Shown: one piece after another, positions 7,280 through 55,240 of the stretch
Layout: each line of letters opens with the position of its first letter
Numbering within the stretch: position 1 is the stretch's first letter
Assembly: GCA_030390025.1 (NCBI GenBank)
Contig: CM059431.1
Span: 140,990,001 to 141,054,000 of the forward strand
Length of the DNA: 64,000 bases
Reading direction: 5' to 3'
Source of the DNA: Squalus acanthias
Taxonomy: Eukaryota
The notes under the pieces: generated by a model
Seen by the model: only the letters and a program-made list of their open reading frames with translations
Databases searched by the model: none
What the model was told of the DNA's origin: nothing
Translations under genes and position numbers: made by a program

Positions 7280-9014
7280 CTCAACACCCGGCATTTGTGC
7301 AGTACGGATCCCAGGCGCAAGAATCCTTCACACTGAATGTAGCAGTTCTCCAGATCGAGGTATTTTACTGTATCACAGAGTGCAATGACATGACACAGGA
7401 CCGCACAGTCAATCGGGGTCAATCTCAATCCACGAAATGTAAGAGATTTCACAGATCCCACTGTTTTCCGAGCCAGTGCTTTATTCTGAGACTCAAACAG
7501 GTAGTGGAATGTGTTCAGGAGGTTCCTTTTACCAGTTTCACTCTCTGTGTTTTCAATCTGTCCTTCAACCTTCTCCTTCAACCAATCAATCACTCGGCAA
7601 ATGGTTTTATAAAGAAATGGACCCAGAAACTCCTCCAGGGGCCGAGCTGCCTGTGGGGAGGAGAGACCAGCAACAAAACGGAGAAATATCTCAAATCGCC
7701 CATCTTCCTTGCTGTGGGATTCTGTGAGGAGTTTCTGGATGTCCCCGGGATCTGGAGTCAGGAATTGTGCGAGTGCGGCTACAAACTCTTGGATGGTGAT
7801 GTGCGGGAATGTGTACACCACATTCTGGACAGAATCATCTCTCTCCAAAAGTTCCTTCATGAACCCAGACAGGAACTGGGAAGGTTGCAGATTGTATTTG
7901 TTCAAATCTCCATTCCTAAATACAATCTTCTTCTCGGAGACTCCTGTGAAGGCCATCTCACCAAGTTTCAGTAACACATGGGGACTTTCAATCGCTCGGC
8001 CATGGTTTTTCAGAATGTTGTAAATATAGTAGGAATATAGTTGGGTGATCGTCTTGGGAACTCGCTGCTGATTCCTGTCTCTTTCTGTAAAGAAGGGACC
8101 CAGTGAGAGCCCGAGGATCCAGCAGTAGGAAGGGTTGTAGCACATGGTGTACAGCATCTCGTTCTCCTCCACGTGTTTGAAAACAGCTGCTGCCACCGTC
8201 TGATCTTCAAAAAACTTGTTGAAATATTCCTTCCGTTCTTCACCAACAAATCCCAGGATTTCAGCCCAGACACTGATCTCAGCCTTTTCCAATAAATGTA
8301 ATGCAGTGGGGCGGCTGGTCACGAGCACTGAACATCCTGGGAGCAGCTTGTGCTGTATTAAACTGTACATAATGTCAGACACTTCACACCAGCATTCGGG
8401 ATCTGTGCACATGGACTGAGGTTCTGTATTACTCCGATTGTCAGCAAAATCGATGCTGTCCTTGAATTCATCCAATCCATCGAATATAAACAACAATCGC
8501 TTCGGGTTCTTCCAGAGCTCTCCCAGAATTTTCCCAAAGTAAGGATACTGATCCAGTATCAGATTCCTCAGGTTTATTCTACAGTTAATAGCGTTCAAAT
8601 CGCGGAATTTAAAGCTGAAAACAAATTGAAAGTGTGGGTATATTTTCCCAGTGGCCCAGTCATGAATAATCTTTTGTACCATTGTTGTTTTTCCAATCCC
8701 CGCAACTCCGCTCACTGCTGCTGATCTCCCAGATTTGGATTTTCTCCGGGAAAAACTGCTCTGGAAGAATTGGTCAGTTCGGATTTTTTCCAGCTCTCTC
8801 CGGGGATGTTTCTCTCTCCACTCTTCATGGACTCGGCCTCTTGCCAGCAGTTCATGTTCTACAAGTGTCCAATCTCGAACAGCAGAAATGACCGTTAGCT
8901 CAGCGTATCGATCAACCAGCTGGAAAATCTTAACCTTATCCTGTATTAGGATGGTGTTCACTCTCAATGTTTCAGTTTGTTCCCGCAGTATTTCCTTGTG
9001 TTTCTGTTGAACAT
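7280..9014 (-). CDS. NLR gene, large NACHT exon (NACHT, winged helix, HD2, start of LRR region)
   Basis: Walker A GVAGIGKT, Walker B LLFIFDGLDE, sensor-1 VLVTSR, CYNPSYCW, FPHITIQEFVAA. Acceptor ctgaag|ATGTTC at 9014, donor TTGAG|gtaact at 7280. 1735 bp, open, phase 1 to phase 2. Confidence 0.95.
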
Positions 9015-21249: not shown

Positions 21250-22910
21250 TGATTGTCAAGAAGAGCTAAACACGATTAAAATCACTAAGGAGATGGTAAT
21301 CGGTAAGATAATGGGACTTAAGGCGGATAAATCCCCTGGACCTGATGGCTTACATCCTAGGGTCTTGAGAGAAGTTGCGGTAGGGATTGTGGATGCATTG
21401 GTGGTAATTTTCCAAAACTCCCTGGATTCGGGAAAGGTCCCAGCAGATTGGAAAACTGCTAATGTAACACACTTATTTAAAAAGGGAGGTAGACAAAAGG
21501 CTGGAAACTATAGACCAGTTAGCCTAACATCTGTGGTTGGTAAAATGTTGGAGTCCATTATTAAGGAAGCTGTAACAGGACATTTGGATGAGCATAACTT
21601 AATCGGATAGAGTCAGCATGGTTTTATGAAGGGGAAATCATGCTTGACAAATTTGCTCGAATTCTTTGAGGACGTAACAAACAAGGTGGATAAAGGTGAA
21701 TCAGTGGATGTGGTGTATTTGGACTTCCAAAAGGCATTTCACAAGGTACCACACAAAAGATTACTGCACAAGATAAAAAATCACGGGATTGGGGGTAATA
21801 TACTGGCATGGGTGGAAGATTGGTTATCTAACAGAAAACAGAGAGTTGGGATAAATGGTTAATATTCGGGTTGGCAATCAGTAACTAGTGGTGTTCCGCA
21901 GGGGTCAGTGCTGGGACCCCAACTCTTTACAATCTATATTAACGATTTGGAGGAGGGGACCAAGTGCAATGTATCCAAGTTTGCAGACGATATAAAGATC
22001 GGAGGGAAAGTAATGAGTGAGGAGGACATAAAAAACCTGCAAAAGGACATTGACAGGCTAAGTGAGTGGGCAGAAATTTGGCAGATGGAATATAATGTTG
22101 GAAAGTGTGAGGTTATGCACTTTGGCAGAAAAAAATCAAAGAGCAAGTTATTATCTAAATGGCAAGAAACTGCAAAGTGCTACAGTACAAAGGGATCTGG
22201 GGGTCCTGGTGCATGAAACACAGAAGGTTAGTATGCAGGTACAGCAGGTGATCAGGAAGGCCAATGGAATCTTGGCTTTTATTGCAAGGGGGATGGAGTA
22301 TAAAAGCAGGGAAGTCTTGCTTCAGCTATACAGGGTACTGGTGAGGACACACCTGGAATACTGCTTACAGTTTTGGTTTCCATATTTAAGAAAATATATA
22401 CTTGCTCAAGAGGCAGTTCAGAGAAGGTTCACTCGGTTGATTCCGGAGATGAGGGGGTTGACTTATGAGGAAAGGTTGAGTAGGTTAGGCCTCTACTCAC
22501 TGGAATACAGAAGAATGAGAGGCGATCTTATCGAAACATATAAGATTGTGAGAGGGCTTGATCGGGTGGATGCGGGGAGGATGTTTCCACTGATGGGTGA
22601 GACTAGAACTAGGGGGCATAATCTTAGAATAAGGGGCTGCCGTTTCAAAACTGAGATGAGGAGAAACTTCTTCACTCAGAGGGTAGTAAATCTATGGAAT
22701 TTGCTACCTCAGAGAGCTGTGGAAGCTGCGACATTAAATAAATTTAAAACGGAGATAGACAGTTTCCTAGCTGATACGGGAATTAAGGGTTATGGGGAGC
22801 AGGCAGGGAAGTGGACGTGAGTCTAGGTTCGGATCAGCCATGATCCTATTGAATGGCGGAGCAGGCCCGAAGGGTCGTATGGCCTACTCCTGCTGCTAAT
22901 TCTTATGTAA
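21250..22910 (+). mobile_element. CR1 LINE, 5'-truncated RT region
   Basis: KSPGPDGLHPRVL, NYRPVSLTS, YLDFQKAFHKVPH, KFADD, QRVVNLWN; a few stops and a frameshift. Confidence 0.92.
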
Positions 22911-33524: not shown

Positions 33525-36293
33525 ATAAAATAAAAGCAGAAAATGCTGGAAATGTTCAGCAGGTCAGGCAGCATCTGCAGAGAGAGAAACAGAGGTAACG
33601 TTTCAGGTCGATGACACTTCATCAGAACTTGAAAAGTTTAGATATGTAACAGGTTTTAGGCAAGTAGAGAGGCAGGGAAAGGGGGAGGAGGGGAACGCAT
33701 AACAGGGAATGTCTGTGATAGGATGGAAGGGAGGAGAGATTAAAAGACAAAAGGGGAGATGGTGCATGGCAAATGCAGATAGTAATGGGACAAATTAAGA
33801 AACAAAAGCTGACTCTAGATGAGGTGTAAATGGCAAATCATCAACAGCTGCCACGTGAGAGACAAAAAAAACAAAGGAATTTTTAAAAAAGTGGCCAAGG
33901 TTAAAAGCTGAAATTGTTGAACTCGATGTGGATTCCAGAAGGCTTAAAGTGCCTCATCGAAAGATGAGGTGCTGTGCCTCGAGCATACGTCGAGCTTCGT
34001 TTGAACAGTGTAAGAGGTCGTGGACGGAGAGATCAGAGTGGGATTGGAGCGGTGAATTAAAGTGACCGGCGACCAGAAGCTCGGGGTCAAGCTTACGGAC
34101 TGAACAGAGGTGTTCCCCAAAGTGTTCATCCAATCAACGTTTGGTCTCCCCAATGTAGAGGAGACGGCATCGTGAGCATCGAATACAGGATACTAAATTG
34201 CAAGAAGTAAAAGTAAATCGCTGTTTCTCCTAGAAGGAGTGTTTGGGCCCTGAACAGTGGGAAGGGAGCAGTTAAAAGGGCAGGTGCTGCATCTCCTGCG
34301 CTTGCACGGGAAGGTGCTGTGGGAAGGGGAAGGGGTATTGGTGTGATAGAGGAGTGTACCAGGGTGTCGCGGAGAGAGCGGTCCCTTCAAAATACTGTAA
34401 GGGGAGGGGAGGGGATGATGTGTTTCGTGGTGGGATCACGCTGGAGGTGGTGGAAACGGTGGAGGATTGTCCGTTCAATGTGAAGGTTGGTGGGGTGCAA
34501 TGTGAGGACAAGGGGAACCTTATCGTGGTCCTGGGAGGGAGGGGAAGGGGTGAGATCAGAAGTGAAGGAAATAGAACGGACACGGTCAACGGCATTGTCA
34601 ACCACGGTAGAGGGGAATCCAAGGTTGAGGAAAAAGGAAGACATGTCGGAAGCACTAGTATGGAAGGTGGCATCGTCAGAGCAGATGTGGCATAGATGGA
34701 GAAACTGGGAGAATGCGATAGAGTCCTTCCAGGAAGCGGGCTGGCAATAATTGTAGTCCAGGTAGCTGTAGCAGTCAGTGGGCTTATAGAGAATGTTTGC
34801 CAATAGGCTATCCCCAGAAATAGAGTCACAGAAGTCGAGGAAGGGAAGGGAATAGTCGGAAATGGACCATGTGAAGGTGAGGGAAGTGTGGAAATTGGAA
34901 GCAAAGTGGTGAATTTTTTTAGTACAGGGTGAGAGTAGGAATCAGCACCGATGCAGTCATCAATGTACCGAAAAAAGAGGTGCGGGAGGGGATCTGAGTA
35001 GGACTGGAACAAAGAATATTCCAAAAATCCCACGAAAGGGCAGGCATAGCTAGGGCCCATGCGGGTTCCCATAGGAACACCATTAATTTGGAGGAAGTGA
35101 GCGGAGTGAAAGGAGAAGTTGTTTAATGTGAGAACAAGTTCAGCTAGGCGGAGGAGGGTGGTGGTGGATGGGGGCTGGTTGGGCCTCTATTCAAGGAGGA
35201 AGCGGAGCGCCTTCAGGCCATCCTGGTGCGGGATGGAGGTGTTGAGGGATTGGACGTCCACAGTGAAAAGGAGACGTTTGGTGCAAGGGAACTGGAAACT
35301 GTTAAAGTGGCGGAGGGCGTCGGAAGAGTCAGGGATGTAGGTGGGAAGAGACTGGACAAGGGGAGAAAATATTGTGTCGAGATAGGAAGAGATATGTTCT
35401 GTGGGGCAAGGACAGGCTGAAATGATGGGTCTACCAAAGCAATCCTGTCTTTGTATCTTGAGAAGGAGGTAGAAGCGGGCTGTACGTTGTTGGGGGACTA
35501 TGAGGTGGACAGCCATGGAGGGAAGATCGCCAGAGGAGATGATGTTAGTGACCAACTTGGAAACAATGGCTTGATGTTTGGTAGTGGGGTCATGGTCCAG
35601 GCGGAGGTAGGAGGAGGTGTCGGAGAGTTGGTTTTCAGCCACCGCTAGTTAGAGGTCGGTTCACCAAACAACAACAGCGCCACCCTTGTCAGCAGGTTTA
35701 ATGAAAATGTTGGGGTTGGATCTGAGAGAATGGAGTGCTGCAAGTTCAGAGGGAGGTAGCTTAGAGTGAGTGAGAGGAGCAGAGAAATTGAGCTTGGTGA
35801 AGTCATGCCGGCAGTTAGCAATGAGAAGCTCCAGAGAGTGTAAAAGGCCAGAGGGAGCGATCCAGCTGGAATGAGAATTCTGAAAATGGGTAAAGGGCCC
35901 GCTGTGCGGGGGAAGACTCCTGGCTAAAGAAGCGAGCACGGAGATGAAGGCGACGAAAAAAGAGCTTAGCATCGTGACGAGCTCGAAATTCATTGAGGTG
36001 GGGGCGTAAGGGGATGAAGCTCAGGCCTTTGCTGAGGACTGATCGTTCGGGGTGAGAGAGGGGAAGGTCACAGGCGATAGTGAAAACACAGCAGGGAATG
36101 AGATTGGAAGAAGGTTTCCTGTCAGAGGAAAGTGAAGGAGAAGAGGTTTCTGGAGGGGCGTTGATGTCCAAGAGTTGTTGAAGCTTGCGATCCTTGACAC
36201 CTGAAAGGAAGAAAAAACGTTTTTGTTTAAGCGCCGGTTGAGGAGAAGGATGAAATGGAATTGTGGACCAGGACAGTTGTGAGATAGAGTGAG
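33525..36293 (-). mobile_element. Near full-length degenerate Penelope-like element (5' part at 37778-38217)
   Basis: IKPADKGGAVVVW, GRPIIS, VDVQSLNTSIP, MGTRMGPSYA, FRYIDD and GIY-YIG remnants over several frames, plus the shared 3' tail. Confidence 0.92.
33593..33629 (-). ncRNA. Minimal type I hammerhead motif with intact core
   Basis: Reverse complement AGTT-CTGATGA-agtgtcatcgacct-GAAA-CGTT-ACCT. One mismatch each in helices I and II. Confidence 0.65.
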
Positions 36294-43002: not shown

Positions 43003-43250
43003 TGCAAAAGCCAAATACTGCGGATGCTGGAAATCTGAAATACAAACAGAAAATGCTGGAAATACTCAGCAGTTCAGGTAGCATCTGTGGCGAGAGGAAC
43101 AGAGCTTCAGGTTTCAGGTCGATGACCTTTCGTCAGATCTGGAAAACGTTAGAGATGTAACAGATTTTTAGCAAGCGCAGGGGCAGGGAAAGGGGGGAGG
43201 GGAGGAAAAAAATGAAGTTCTGTGATAAGATGGAAGGAAGGAGAGATTAA
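43003..43250 (-). mobile_element. Solo Penelope terminal-repeat fragment
   Basis: Matches 33530-33745 and 5095-5310; absent from the 63.6-64 kb paralog. Confidence 0.85.
43105..43140 (-). ncRNA. Hammerhead motif with intact core and helix II but degenerate helix III and cleavage site
   Basis: Reverse complement AGAT-CTGACGA-a-AGGTC-atc-GACCT-GAAA-CCTGAAG. Confidence 0.5.
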
Positions 43251-51420: not shown

Positions 51421-52995
51421 GCGGTGATGTCAATTTAGGCTTTGTGAATTGCTGTGGATAGTACGTACTGTTGCTGGACAGGGTGGATACTAAGGACTTA
51501 TAACCAAGCACAATATTTGGTCTAAGAAGACGCCGAGCTTTATGAGTGCAGTTGTGGGTGTGTCCGTTTAAGACAAGTGTGGATGGGGAGGTGTCACAGT
51601 ATTGCTTAAAGAAACAGTTACAGCTGTGAGGAGGGATGATATAAGAACATAAGAACATAAGGACATAAGAAGTAAGAGCAGGAGTAGGCCTTACAGCCCC
51701 TAGAGCCTGCTCCACCATTCAATAAGATCATGGCTGATCATCGACATCAACTCCAATTCCCCGCCTGATCTCCATATCCCTTGATTCCCCGAGAGTCCAA
51801 AAATGTAACTATCTCTGCCTTGAATATATGCAAAGACTCAGCATTCACAGCCGTGTGGGGCAGATAATTCCAAAGATTCAAAACCCTCTGAGTGATGACA
51901 TTCCTCCTCATCTGAGTCTTAAATGACCTTCCCCTTATCCTGAGACAATGTCCCCAAGTTCTAGACACTCCAGTCAGGGGAAACAACCTCTCAGCATCTA
52001 CCATGTCAATCCCCTTCAGGACCGTCTATGTTTTAATGTGATCAGCTCTCATTCTTCTAAACTCCAGAGAGTATAGGCCAATTCTACTCAGTCTCTCATC
52101 ATAGGACAGCCCTCGCATCCCAAGAATCAATCTAGTGAACCTTTGCTGCACCGCCTCCAAGGCAAGTATATCCTTCCTTAGATAAGGAGACCAGAACAGT
52201 GCACAGTACACCAGGTGTGGTCTCACCAAGACCCTGTACAATTGTAGCAAGACTTCCTTACTCTTATACCTCAGCCACCTTGTAATAAATGCCAACATGC
52301 CATTTGCTTTCCTTATTGCTTCCTATACCTGCCTGCTAGCTGTCTTTGTTTCTTGCACGAGGACACACAAATCTCTCTGAACACCGACGTATGAAAGTTT
52401 CTCACCATTTAAAAATATTCTGTTTTTCTATTCTTTCTACCAAAGTGAATAAACTCACATTTCCCTACATTATATTCCATCTGCCACCCCACTGCCCACT
52501 CACTTAGTCTATCTTTATCCCTTTGCAGGCACGTTGTTTCCTCCTCAGAGCTTACTGTCCCACATATCTTTGTATCATCAGCAAACTTGGATACATTACA
52601 TTCGGTCCCTTCATCTAGGTCATTAATATAGATTGTAAATATCTGAGGCCCCAACACTGCTCCTTGCGGCACCCCACTAGTTACAACCTTAAAAAGATCA
52701 GTTTATCCCAACTTTCTGTTTTCTGTCCGTTAACCAATCCACTATCCAGTCCACTAAATTATCCCAAACCCATGAGCCCTAATCTTGTGTAATAATCTAT
52801 TGTGTGGCACCTTATCGAATGCCTTTTGGAAATGCTAATATACTACATCCTCTGGCTCCCCTTTATCTACCCTGATAGTTACATCCAAAACACTGTAATC
52901 AATTTGTCAATCATGATTTCCCTTTCATAAAACCATGTAGACTCTTCCTAATTATGTTATGACACCAGGTTATAGTCCAAAAGCTTTATTTGAAA

Positions 52996-53032
52996 TCACA
53001 AGCTTTCGGAGCGCTGCTCCTTCGTCAGGTGA
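52996..53032 (-). ncRNA. Minimal type I hammerhead ribozyme motif, canonical core
   Basis: Exact reverse complement of 53235-53271. Confidence 0.85.
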
Positions 53033-53234
53033 AGTGCAGAAATAAAATGGGCACAGCATATATAGACAGAGAACAATGGCTGTGCAGAGAACAATGCCAG
53101 ACGACTACAGTTAATCTTTCTAACTGCCCTTTATCAGGGCTGTTAGAAAGATTAACTGCAGTCGTCTGGCATTGTTCTCTGCATAGACATTGTTCTCTGT
53201 CTATATATGCTGTGGCCAATTCTATTTCTTCACT

Positions 53235-53271
53235 TCACCTGACGAAGGAGCAGCGCTCCGAAAGCTTGTGA
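53235..53271 (+). ncRNA. Minimal type I hammerhead ribozyme motif, canonical core
   Basis: TCAC-CTGACGA-a-GGAGC-agc-GCTCC-GAAA-GCTT-GTGA: helix I TCAC/GTGA, helix II GGAGC/GCTCC, palindromic AAGCTT helix III, predicted cut after CUU. Confidence 0.85.
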
Positions 53272-53709
53272 TTTCAAATAAAGCTGTTGGACTATAACCT
53301 GGTGTTGTGCGACTTCTCACTTTTATCCACCCCAGTCCAACACCGGCATCTCCGTATCATAATTATCTTATGATTTTCTAAGTGACTTGATACCGCTTCC
53401 TTAACAATGGATTCCAGCATTTTCCCGACGACTGATATCAGGCTGACTGGCCTGTATTTCCCTGTTCTTTTCTCCCTCCTTTCTTGAATAGCAGTGTTAC
53501 ATTTGCGACCTTTCAATCTGCTGGGACCTCTCCAGAATCTAGGGAATTTTTGAAGATCAAAACCAATGCATCCACTATCTCTACAGCCACCTCTTTTAGA
53601 ACCCTAGGATGTTGGCCGTCAGATCCAAGGGATTTGTCGGCTTTTAGTCAGATAAATTTCTCAAGTACTTTCCTCTACTTATATTAATTACATTAAGTTC
53701 CTCACCATA

Positions 53710-55240
53710 TGTTCATATGTCAGATGGATCCTCAAATGAGGCCGTATGCTTTGAACTAAAGATTTAAAAGGGCAATCACACTGCAGGGAATATAATATAG
53801 ACCCCCAAATAGTCAGAGGGAGTTAGAAGAGCAAATATGTTGTCACATTTCTGAGAAGTGCAAAAGCAATAGGACAGTAATAGGAGGGGATTTCAACTAA
53901 ATCTGATAGAATTAGTGTAAAAGATAGAGAGGGTGCAGAATTCTTCAAATAAATTCAGGCTTACTTTTTTAGCCAGTACGTAGCATGGCCAACAAGACAG
54001 GGGTGGTTCTGAACTTAGTTTTAGGGAATGTTGCTCTGCAGGTGAAAGGGACATCAGTAGGTAAAATGTTGGTGGTTATGATTATAATTTAGTTAGCTTT
54101 AGCCTAGTTATGGAAAAGGACGGTGATATACCATGAGTAAAGGTTTACAATTGGCGAAAGGCCATTTTTATAAGCTGTGATATGGTTTAGGAGAACAGCT
54201 GTGAACAGCTACTTGAAGGTAAATCAGTGTCAGAGCATTGGGGGGCATTCAAGGAGGAAATAGTGAGGGTTCCGAGCAAATATGTACCGACAAAGAAAAA
54301 GGTTGGGACTCCCAAATCTAGAGCTCCCTGAATGTCAAGGGACATACAGGGTAGGATAAGGCAATAAAGGGAAGCTTTTGTCAAATACCGAGAGCTTAAT
54401 ACTGCAGAAATATAGAGGAGTATAGAAAGTACCGGGGGTAAATTAAAAAGGAAATTAGGAAAGCAAAGAGAGATCATGAAAAAATATTGGCAATTAAAAT
54501 TAAGGAAAACCCAAAGATATTTTATAAATACATTAAGAACAAGAGAATAACTAAGGCAAGATTAGGCCCTATTAGAGACCCGATAGGTAAGTTGTGTGTG
54601 CAGGCTGAAGACTTGGGTATGGTTGTTCATTTGCGTCAGTCTTCACAAAAGAGAGCAACGATGCAGAAATGTATTTAAGGAGCAGGAGTGTGAAATATTA
54701 AATAAGATAAACATAGTGAGAAAGGTGTTTAGGATATTTGAAAGTTGATGAATATCCAGGCCTGGATGAAATGGATCACAGGGTATCAACAGAAGCAAGA
54801 GAGGAAATAGCGGAGGCTCTGACCATCATTTTCCAATCCTCTCTGGCTAAAGATGTGGTGCCGGAGGACTGGAGGCTGCTAACGTTGTATCGTTGGTTAA
54901 AAGGGGAGAAAAGGATAGACCGAGCAATTGCAGGCCAGTCAGCCTAACCGCGGTGAATGGGCGAATAATTGGTAAAAATTCTGTGGGACAGTATTAATCG
55001 TCATCTAGAAAGGCACGGATTAATCAAGGACAGTTAACATGAATTTGTTAAGGGAAGGTCGTGCCTGTCTAACTTGATTGTTTTTTTTGAGGAGGCAACA
55101 AGGAGGGTCGGTGAAGTTAGCGTGTTTGAAGTAGTCTACATGGATTTTAGCAAGGCTTTCGAGAAGGTCTAACATGGCAGGTTTGTGAGAAAAGTAAAAT
55201 CCCATGGGATCGAAGGGAAAGTGGCAAGTATTGAATCTCA
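53710..55240 (+). mobile_element. Old degenerate CR1 (APE to RT)
   Basis: TATAGACCCCCAAATAGT, GGGGATTTCAACT, IKENPKIFYKYIKNKR, ATGGATTTTAGCAAGGCTTT. Confidence 0.8.

What the first reader, a model, noticed from the sequence alone, without database searches (positions are those of the whole stretch)
52949..53373. Mobile ~400-bp fold-back element carrying two identical, oppositely oriented hammerhead ribozymes
Seen: a ~170-bp-arm palindrome (loop TTATC at 53131-53135) with a 55-bp unpaired tail. It interrupts a CR1 and is bracketed by a 14-bp direct repeat with one mismatch (TAATTATGTTATGA / TAATTATCTTATGA). Each arm holds TCAC-CTGACGA-A-GGAGC-AGC-GCTCC-GAAA-GCTT-GTGA. The two 37-nt motifs are identical, while the rest of the arms carry scattered mismatches. 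Established: minimal type I hammerheads with a palindromic helix III occur in Penelope-like terminal repeats and in non-autonomous retrozymes, and are thought to cleave as dimers. Inference: this is a non-coding RNA element that yields a long hairpin and one hammerhead whichever strand is transcribed, a viroid-like ambisense layout. It would be mobilised in trans by a Penelope family different from the one elsewhere in the window, since its helices differ.
Basis: partly seen in the sequence, partly recalled or inferred. Interest (0 to 1): 0.85.

Follow-up and report, generated by a model that had tools for sequence, protein, structure and literature searches.

The report
Truncated inverted Penelope insertion with hammerheads
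The 400-base palindrome is real, but it is the usual head-to-head, heavily shortened insertion scar of a Penelope-like retrotransposon that litters this genome, each arm carrying that family's standard small hammerhead motif, so it is ordinary rather than a new ribozyme element.

Summary
Observation confirmed; interpretation only partly. Window 52963-53359 is a palindrome of about 170-bp arms with a 5-nt loop. An identical hammerhead-like motif sits in each arm, a 14-bp target duplication flanks it, and it interrupts a LINE reverse-transcriptase gene.

The arms are the last 170-224 nt of the 3' UTR of an autonomous Penelope-like element (PLE) encoding RT plus GIY-YIG. In this 3.7-Gb genome the exact motif occurs 23,226 times. 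There are 7,708 head-to-head pairs within 300 nt, against 273 tandem pairs.

The same family makes palindromes with arms from about 85 to 1,290 bp, and also plain 5'-truncated copies. One end carries the known 35-nt PLE "tail". The window's own inversion junction exists only three times: this locus and two segmental duplicates. Arms within a copy are nearly identical while copies differ, so the palindrome is remade at each insertion and not inherited.

As RNA the element folds into one hairpin that buries the hammerhead. Inverted 5'-truncated copies, tails and opposite-strand min-hammerhead pairs are already published for PLEs. Low interest.

The parts
52949..52962 (.). Left copy of the 14-bp target-site duplication (TAATTATGTTATGA), AT-rich
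   Evidence: Read. Uninterrupted paralogues of the flanking LINE show the two flanks overlapping by about 11-14 nt.
52963..53130 (-). Left arm: PLE 3'-UTR end in antisense orientation on the + strand. It has no tail and is truncated a further 20 nt at its outer end compared with most copies.
   Evidence: It maps to positions 471-646 of a 700-nt native reference taken from L031.
52996..53032 (-). Minimal type-I hammerhead motif of the left arm. The predicted cut lies between 53000 and 52999 on the minus-strand RNA (inference from hammerhead numbering).
   Evidence: Exact 27-nt core match; sequence read.
53131..53135 (.). Inversion junction, or loop (TTATC). This junction is unique to this locus and its two segmental duplicates.
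   Evidence: The junction pattern has 3 hits in the genome.
53136..53324 (+). Right arm: PLE 3'-UTR end in sense orientation, up to the inner (no-tail) reverse-transcription start position.
   Evidence: It maps to reference positions 477-665.
53235..53271 (+). Minimal type-I hammerhead motif of the right arm: UCAC / CUGACGA / A / GGAGC-AGC-GCUCC / GAAA / GCUU / GUGA. The predicted cut is after 53267 (inference).
   Evidence: The isolated 52-nt segment has helix I plus helix II at -10.8 kcal/mol, against an MFE of -11.6.
53325..53359 (+). 35-nt PLE 'tail' extension, present on one side only
   Evidence: In 15 of the 16 other independent palindromic copies aligned, the no-tail arm ends at reference 660-671 and the tail arm at 677-700. 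The exception is the partial L027 (no-tail arm to reference 562); the two segmental duplicates share the window's end at 646. The tail concept is described in PMC8557442 and PMC11167929.
53360..53373 (.). Right copy of the target-site duplication (TAATTATCTTATGA, one mismatch)
52026..52948 (-). Downstream part (in LINE sense) of the interrupted LINE reverse-transcriptase gene
   Evidence: ORFs; RVT_1 46.7 bits for 52409-52702.
53374..53603 (-). Upstream part (in LINE sense) of the interrupted LINE RT gene
   Evidence: ORF. Weak RVT_1 match to profile positions 3-33 (16.2 bits, below cut-off). Contiguous with the other flank in paralogues.

Best explanation
The feature is one old insertion of a Penelope-like element (PLE) of the endonuclease-bearing type. 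It was extremely 5'-truncated and laid down in the head-to-head ('inverted 5'-truncated copy') form that is typical of PLE integration. Only the last ~170 nt (left arm) and ~224 nt (right arm) of the element's 3' UTR were copied. This region carries the family's minimal hammerhead and, on one side, the 35-nt tail.

Likely mechanism:
- The PLE GIY-YIG endonuclease made staggered nicks 14 bp apart in an AT-rich site inside a LINE. (The TSD is shown; the enzyme is inferred.)
- Reverse transcription started at the element's internal start sites, about 57 and 92 nt downstream of the hammerhead cut site, and ran towards the RNA 5' end. This happened on both sides of the target, or on one side followed by a switch onto the nascent cDNA. 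(Inferred from outer ends that coincide with the two alternative ends seen in all copies, and from the published in-vitro behaviour of an Anolis PLE.)
- The two short products were joined at their inner ends, giving the unique TTATC junction.

The two hammerheads are therefore passengers duplicated by the insertion mechanism. In a transcript of the whole palindrome each would be locked in a ~170-bp duplex. The locus was later copied twice by segmental duplication on the same chromosome.
For: 1. Longer copies of the same sequence run upstream into an ORF. That ORF has RVT_1 (31.4 bits against a cut-off of 29.6). Its C-terminal region aligns at 30% identity, E 7e-25, with relative P0016 across the part where Pfam finds GIY-YIG in P0016. 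The nearest database proteins, at 93% identity, are RT-domain proteins of sharks.

2. Of 20 loci chosen only for matching the right arm, 11 carry an inverted partner, by my classification of the tables. Five are near-symmetric palindromes with arms of about 121, 260, 495, 667 and 1,290 bp. Five have unequal arms around a longer unique middle (L037, L045, L046, L048, and L049 near its 5' end). One (L047) carries a separate ~90-bp-arm palindrome beside a single copy. The other 9 are plain 5'-truncated single copies of 268-1,200 nt.

3. Genome-wide counts. The exact motif gives 23,226 hits (reversed-pattern control 0). There are 7,708 head-to-head core pairs within 300 nt (control 4), against 273 same-strand pairs. 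Of the 50 places listed, the gaps run from 5 to 255 nt: 35 are 32 nt or less and 15 are 64-255 nt. The window's gap is 210 nt.

4. 17 other loci carry a palindrome of similar size. At least 13 of the 17 have their own 10-14-bp AT-rich TSD, by my reading of the alignment. Their inner arm ends differ, lying 83-131 nt upstream of the hammerhead, and either arm can be the longer one.

5. The tail is one-sided in all 17. This matches the published PLE signature (PMC8557442 passages; PMC11167929 main text).

6. The window's junction has 3 hits only, all with the same LINE flanks.

7. Within-copy arm divergence is 2.4% against 6.3% between copies. For example, the arms of L029 differ at 1 of 176 positions, while L029 differs from the others at 10-20 positions.

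8. The motif meets every sequence feature of the metazoan PLE min-hammerhead of Cervera & de la Pena 2014 (PMC4209133, parts 1-2 read). That paper also reports dual motifs about 100-700 bp apart on opposite strands.
Against: - No Rfam hammerhead model matches, even on the isolated 64-nt motif at E<=10. The hammerhead call therefore rests on the published descriptor and not on a covariance model, and no cleavage data exist.
- Pfam does not find GIY-YIG directly in this family's ORF; the assignment goes through a 30%-identical relative.
- I did not recover a full-length copy, so the position of the hammerhead relative to the ORF start and the pLTR boundaries is not shown.
- One inversion junction in an older subfamily recurs exactly 45 times. 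That could also mean that some fold-backs are copied as units.
- Low arm divergence could partly reflect arm-to-arm gene conversion after insertion.
- Public short-read contigs did not span the locus, so the assembly of this particular copy is supported only by its two paralogues.
Confidence: 0.9

Rival explanations
1. One reading: the ~400-bp fold-back is a dedicated non-autonomous mobile element. It would be transcribed from either strand, with each transcript ending in a sense hammerhead plus the reverse-transcription entry module, and it would be copied as a unit in trans by a PLE.
For: Whole palindromes of similar size lie at 17 other loci, at least 13 with their own TSDs. One centre junction of an older subfamily (GTTAATCTTTCTGACTG-TY-TCTCTGCYGAGG) occurs 45 times exactly, in both orientations relative to the tail. 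Either strand would indeed carry a sense 3' module.
Against: The window's junction is confined to one locus and its duplicates. Inner ends differ among copies, and gaps range from 5 to 255 nt in an unselected listing. Arms are near-identical within copies despite 6% or more between copies, with no shared arm asymmetries beyond CpG sites. A unit copied through both arms would not be re-homogenised in this way. Both outer ends coincide with the two alternative ends seen in single-arm copies, not with a transcript 5' end. The recurrent junction lies at a native inverted repeat of the 3' UTR (TCTTTCTGACTG / CAGTYAGAAAGA), which is a plausible template-switch hot spot. The hammerhead is sequestered in the hairpin.
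Confidence: 0.05
2. Two independent PLE fragments landed side by side by chance, or a single-arm insertion was later duplicated in inverted orientation by a replication or repair accident unrelated to PLE integration.
For: PLE ends are extremely abundant (23,226 motifs). Palindromes can also arise by fork switching.
Against: One 14-bp TSD brackets the whole unit, and paralogues show a single empty site. Head-to-head pairs outnumber tandem pairs 7,708 to 273 within 300 nt, which chance juxtaposition does not predict. The one-sided 35-nt tail is systematic.
Confidence: 0.03
3. Assembly artefact: a collapsed or chimeric join of two repeat copies.
For: PLE inverted structures are known to trouble assemblies (PMC8557442 passage). 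No public contig spanned the locus.
Against: The same structure with the same flanks is assembled three times on the chromosome at 96-98% identity with private differences. Thousands of analogous structures exist.
Confidence: 0.02

Closest known systems
Inverted 5'-truncated insertion structure of endonuclease-bearing Penelope-like elements (Evgen'ev & Arkhipova 2005, recalled; Craig et al. 2021, PMC8557442, passages read)
   Same: High 5' truncation. An inverted truncated copy abuts the main copy and forms inverted repeats. A 30-40-bp tail sits at one end only. The hammerhead lies in the terminal repeat region. The TSD is present in an AT-rich target.
   Different: Here both copies are truncated to the 3' UTR, so nothing but the fold-back remains. 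The left arm of this copy starts 20 nt further in than usual.
Minimal hammerhead ribozymes of metazoan PLEs (Cervera & de la Pena 2014, PMC4209133, parts 1-2 read)
   Same: [quoted passage not shown] That paper already notes dual motifs about 100-700 bp apart on opposite strands and ascribes them to truncated PLEs.
   Different: Helix II is 5 bp with a 3-nt loop, shorter than the 7-8 bp of the Schistosoma families. No activity data exist for this family.
Internal initiation and both-strand extension by the Anolis PLE 'PAc' in vitro (Frangieh et al. 2024, PMC11167929, main text read)
   Same: There are two alternative outer ends about 35 nt apart (tail or no tail), lying about 57 and 92 nt downstream of the hammerhead cut site. 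This is comparable to the PAc start sites about 85-92 nt downstream of its cut site. The target is AT-rich.
   Different: That work is biochemical and on another species' element. Dual priming in vivo is my inference, not shown there or here.
Non-LTR retrozymes (tandem hammerhead repeats giving circular RNAs; Li, Clavereau & Pollet 2026 preprint, 10.64898/2026.07.22.740005, abstract and passages read)
   Same: A PLE-derived non-coding sequence with a type-I hammerhead.
   Different: Retrozymes are head-to-tail tandems whose paired hammerheads excise a unit. This locus is head-to-head with one sense hammerhead per strand, and tandem pairs are rare here (273 against 7,708).

Membership tests
Metazoan PLE minimal hammerhead (min-HHR) | Conserved core boxes CUGANGA ... 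GAAA in type-I order, with H17 not G | tested here: met
   CUGACGA at 53239-53245 and GAAA at 53260-53263. U17 is at 53267, followed by G1.1. The motif is mirrored exactly in the left arm.
Metazoan PLE minimal hammerhead (min-HHR) | [quoted passage not shown] | tested here: met
   A at 53246. Helix II is GGAGC(53247-51)/GCUCC(53255-59). Genome variants keep the pairing while the loops change. One variant (GGAGU...ACUCC) is compensatory, by my reading of the list, and GGGGC/GCUCC occurs.
Metazoan PLE minimal hammerhead (min-HHR) | Short helix I (4-5 bp), and a palindromic 15.2-16.2 with no or minimal loop 3 (active only as a dimer) | tested here: met
   UCAC/GUGA gives 4 bp. A15.1-G-C-U16.1 is the palindrome AGCU. 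The monomer fold keeps helices I and II.
Metazoan PLE minimal hammerhead (min-HHR) | Self-cleavage | not testable with these tools
   No assay was possible. Published PLE min-HHRs cleave poorly in vitro (PMC4209133), and the PAc hammerhead needs protein (PMC11167929).
Rfam hammerhead families (RF00163, RF00008, RF02275-7) | Score at or above the gathering threshold of a hammerhead covariance model | tested here: not met
   No hammerhead hit at gathering threshold on the window. None at E<=10 on 52800-53500 or on the isolated motif 53222-53285. This is expected for a motif without a helix III hairpin.
Endonuclease-bearing Penelope-like element insertion | The sequence belongs to an element encoding RT with a C-terminal GIY-YIG endonuclease | tested here: met
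   The arms continue into an ORF in L031, L035, L046 and L048. RVT_1 scores 31.4 bits. The C-terminus aligns with the GIY-YIG region of P0016. A direct Pfam GIY-YIG hit is absent.
Endonuclease-bearing Penelope-like element insertion | 5' truncation with an adjacent inverted 5'-truncated copy, and variable inversion points among copies | tested here: met
Endonuclease-bearing Penelope-like element insertion | A 30-40-bp tail extension at one end only | tested here: met
   A 35-nt difference between arm outer ends in 15 of the 16 other independent copies aligned. The window and its two duplicates lack a further 20 nt.
Non-LTR retrozyme | Head-to-tail tandem units, each with a sense hammerhead, able to excise a unit-length RNA | tested here: not met
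   The two motifs are on opposite strands. Each transcript has only one sense hammerhead.
Foldback or MITE-type DNA transposon | Terminal inverted repeats recognised by a transposase, with a fixed-length TSD | tested here: not met
   The arms are retroelement 3' UTR with asymmetric ends. TSDs vary from about 10 to 14 bp.

The most novel reading that the evidence does not exclude
Some fold-back PLE ends may be self-propagating ambisense parasites of the PLE machinery. The best candidates are the older class whose centre junction recurs 45 times exactly, in both orientations relative to the tail. Whichever strand is transcribed, the RNA ends in a sense hammerhead plus the reverse-transcription entry module. 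The second arm would be regenerated from the first at each round, which would also explain birth-identical arms. A related by-product reading: the roughly 7,700 head-to-head pairs form a large reservoir of hairpin-RNA loci that could feed small-RNA silencing of the PLE.
Probability: 0.07. Interest if true: 0.65.

Novelty: new member of a known kind. Interest (0 to 1): 0.2.

Why it matters
For this locus, little: it is a dead, non-coding insertion scar inside a dead LINE.

Its value is as a clean, very abundant example. There are about 23,000 intact motifs and about 7,700 head-to-head pairs in one vertebrate genome. These could be mined to infer how PLEs integrate. Relevant features are the two alternative outer ends, the one-sided tail, the birth-identical arms, the inversion hot spots immediately 5' of the hammerhead, and the hot spot at a native 3'-UTR inverted repeat.

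It also shows that paired, opposite-strand hammerhead motifs in animal genomes should not be read as viroid-like designs. And it shows that Rfam models miss this class.

Tried and rejected
- Rfam scans gave no hammerhead family. The only hits were spurious miRNA or hairpin matches to the long stem and a weak group-II fragment.
- The direct Pfam search of the 303-aa C-terminal ORF found no GIY-YIG. I had to go through relative P0016.
- Self-BLAST filters missed the long palindromes, because a full palindrome gives one self-overlapping HSP. This was fixed.
- In one search the first 48 nt of my L031 reference appeared 'inverted' in six loci. One search showed this was an artefact of taking the reference across L031's own inversion point. 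Those loci simply continue into the RT gene.
I took the unbiased view from pattern listings instead.
- L051 was fetched as a candidate full-length element, since two same-strand motifs lie 2,965 nt apart. It turned out to be two separate short palindromic insertions, so the full-length structure and pLTR limits remain unseen.
- The RNA dimer cofold was dominated by intermolecular helix II pairing and says nothing about a dimeric hammerhead.
- Sequencing runs gave only short repeat-derived contigs at huge summed depth. No piece spans the stretch, so there is no verdict on this locus or on its expression. Many contigs join the two cores with about 200-225 nt skipped, and others run on past 53136 with the native 3'-UTR sequence. 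Both agree with other copies being shorter or longer.
- The search of earlier findings returned nothing for this genome.
- Hypothesis considered and dropped: that the arms come from two different source subfamilies. Apart from hammerhead loop 2, the arms of each copy match.
Full report
**1.

Window 52963-53359 is a near-perfect palindrome.
- The repeat finder gives arms 52962-53052/53215-53305 at 96% complementarity and 53045-53130/53136-53221 at 93%, around a 5-nt loop at 53131-53135.
- A global alignment of the two arms gives 160 matches, 10 mismatches and 1 gap column over 171 columns.
- The 27-nt core CTGACGAAGGAGCAGCGCTCCGAAAGC is exact on both strands, with 0 expected in shuffles.
- The 14-bp direct repeat (52949-52962 and 53360-53373, one mismatch) is there.
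- Folded as RNA, the element is one long hairpin of -293.7 kcal/mol, z = -32.7.

The flanks are a LINE reverse-transcriptase gene on the minus strand. RVT_1 scores 46.7 bits for 52409-52702. A weak match to the start of the profile covers 53374-53603. Uninterrupted copies of that LINE elsewhere show the two flanks adjacent, overlapping by about 11-14 nt. Examples are window 21315-22267, L039 and L045. So the direct repeat is a genuine target-site duplication. I did not test whether the LINE is CR1 rather than L2.

At 6.4% arm divergence, a given 37-nt stretch escapes change with P of about 0.085.

**2. What the arms are**

A search of the window's own 3.7-Gb assembly with the element gave 2,043 first-look candidates, of which 40 were scored. 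They fall into three classes.
- Two copies at 97% identity include the LINE flanks. They lie on the same chromosome and are segmental duplicates.
- 17 loci hold a palindrome of similar size at 84-92% identity.
- About 20 loci match only the right arm plus tail, at 92-96% identity.

I fetched the third class with 4-kb flanks. In these loci the same sequence continues upstream into coding sequence.
- L031 is a 2.6-kb palindrome whose arms encode 285-303-aa ORFs.
- L035, L046 and L048 continue further upstream. In L046 this upstream part is an ORF with RVT_1 at 31.4 bits against a cut-off of 29.6.
- The C-terminal ORF got no direct Pfam GIY-YIG hit. It does align at 30% identity, E 7e-25, with relative P0016, across the region where Pfam finds GIY-YIG in P0016 (25.3 bits against a cut-off of 22.6).
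- The nearest database proteins, at 93% identity, are uncharacterised RT-domain proteins of sharks.

So the arms are the last 170-224 nt of the roughly 475-nt 3' UTR of an autonomous RT plus GIY-YIG Penelope-like element.

**3. Variable inversion points**

Among the 20 right-arm loci, 11 carry an inverted partner, by my classification.
- Five are near-symmetric palindromes, with arms of about 121 (L050), 260 (L032), 495 (L033), 667 (L040) and 1,290 bp (L031).
- Five have unequal arms around a longer unique middle: L037, L045, L046, L048, and L049 near its 5' end.
- One (L047) carries a separate ~90-bp-arm palindrome beside a single copy.

The other 9 are plain 5'-truncated copies of 268-1,200 nt.

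For a view unbiased by my query I used pattern counts.
- The exact hammerhead motif occurs 23,226 times (reversed-pattern control 0).
- Head-to-head core pairs within 300 nt occur at 7,708 places (control 4).
- Same-strand pairs within 300 nt number only 273 (controls 27 and 98).
- The 10-nt core used also matches related PLE families.
- In the 50 places listed (the first 14.5 Mb of contig 1), 35 gaps are 5-32 nt and 15 are 64-255 nt. Only one lies within 15 nt of the window's 210.

In the 17 look-alike palindromes the inner ends lie 83-131 nt upstream of the hammerhead, and either arm can be the longer one. At least 13 of the 17 have their own 10-14-bp AT-rich TSD, by my reading of the alignment.

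**4. Not a unit that spreads**

The window's own junction, searched as a 29-nt pattern with up to 2 mismatches, occurs three times only. These are this locus and its two duplicates.

Within copies the arms differ at 0-9 of about 175 positions (mean 2.4%). Arms of different copies differ by 6.3% on average. The partner arm is the nearest arm for 20 of 34 arms. Asymmetries shared between copies are essentially CpG sites with random direction.

A fold-back copied through both arms would pass on arm differences. Instead the arms look newly identical at each insertion. One caveat is that arm-to-arm gene conversion could contribute to this.

Both outer ends are fixed. One lies at the tail end. The other lies 35 nt further in, in 15 of the 16 other independent copies aligned. 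The window's left arm lacks a further 20 nt.

**5. A recurrent junction**

In an older subfamily one centre (GTTAATCTTTCTGACTG-TY-TCTCTGCYGAGG) occurs 45 times exactly, or 48 times with a shorter pattern. It appears in both orientations relative to the tail.

The native 3' UTR has an inverted repeat here, TCTTTCTGACTG ... CAGTYAGAAAGA. I read this as a template-switch hot spot, but the step is inferred.

**6. The hammerhead**

The motif reads UCAC-CUGACGA-A-GGAGC-AGC-GCUCC-GAAA-GCUU-GUGA. It meets each sequence feature listed for metazoan PLE min-hammerheads by Cervera & de la Pena 2014 (PMC4209133, parts 1-2 read):
- both core boxes;
- the G10.1-C11.1 pair;
- a 4-bp helix I;
- a palindromic 15.2-16.2 without loop 3, implying dimer dependence.

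The cut after 53267 follows from standard numbering and is an inference. Rfam finds nothing. Activity is untested.

That paper reports low in-vitro activity for such motifs. It also notes dual motifs about 100-700 bp apart on opposite strands, ascribed to truncated PLEs. In the fold-back transcript the motif is fully paired with its antisense copy.

**7. Comparison with what is known**

Craig et al. 2021 (PMC8557442, passages read) describe three PLE insertion features: high 5' truncation, an inverted 5'-truncated copy forming inverted repeats, and a 30-40-bp tail often at one end only.

Frangieh et al. 2024 (PMC11167929, main text read) report the following for an Anolis PLE in vitro.
- It cleaves AT-rich DNA.
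- It extends both strands.
- It starts reverse transcription at two internal sites whose spacing equals the tail.
- Its hammerhead is not needed for insertion.

The window's element fits all of this. My mechanism is priming on both target strands, or a switch onto the nascent cDNA, followed by joining at the inner ends. This is inference built on those data.

The 2026 preprint on animal retrozymes (10.64898/2026.07.22.740005, abstract and passages read) concerns tandem forms, not inverted ones. A full-text search for hammerhead, Penelope, inverted and shark listed no paper on this family.

**8. Verdict**

This is an ordinary, old, non-coding PLE insertion scar. The PLE and hammerhead attribution is right. 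The claim of a purpose-built ambisense mobile ribozyme element is not supported.

Noticed in passing
G000 contig C1, first 14.5 Mb (places listed); also L051: Of the 50 head-to-head hammerhead pairs listed, 35 have only 5-32 nt between the two cores. The inversion therefore sits right at the 5' edge of helix I, with variable 0-3-nt fillers. This marks a strong hot spot, or a discrete RNA 5' end, just upstream of the hammerhead. I have no tested explanation.
   Followed up: partly
L005, L006, L008, L009, L011, L020 (alignment): Loop 2 of the hammerhead (AGC / AGCC / AGCA / AGCG) differs between the two arms of the same copy in 6 of 17 palindromes. The rest of the arms differ at only about 2%. 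The site appears hypervariable, possibly through error at the hairpin tip during reverse transcription.
   Followed up: no
window 43112-43136(-) and 33601-33625(-): A second hammerhead-like motif (CUGAYGA-A-GKGUC-AUC-GACCU-GAAAC) sits in a different repeat. That repeat continues ...GATGCTGCCTGACCTGCTGAG...TTTCCAGCATTTTCTG. The same repeat occurs in 118-nt tandem at G000:C2:111018991-111019236, a retrozyme-like layout.
   Followed up: partly
G000:C3:139350704-139350866 and G000:C1:187092274-187092343: Micro-tandem arrays built from the hammerhead itself. One has 51-nt units running from the core to 13 nt past the cut site. Another has 20-nt units. Their origin is unexamined.
   Followed up: no
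window 52300-54000 versus G000:C7:145.105 Mb (L002) and C7:140.329 Mb (L003, inverted): The LINE plus palindrome is present three times on the same chromosome, at 96-98% identity over at least the 1.3 kb of flanks compared. These are segmental duplications younger than the PLE insertion. Their extent was not mapped.
   Followed up: partly
L031 reference positions about 405-500; 45 genomic places: The PLE 3' UTR has a native inverted repeat about 100 nt upstream of the hammerhead. In an older subfamily the palindromic insertions turn round exactly there, giving an identical junction at 45 dispersed loci.
   Followed up: partly
window 13798-61269: At least seven further diverged copies (65-78% identity) of the same LINE family that hosts the insertion lie within this 64-kb window.
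   Followed up: no
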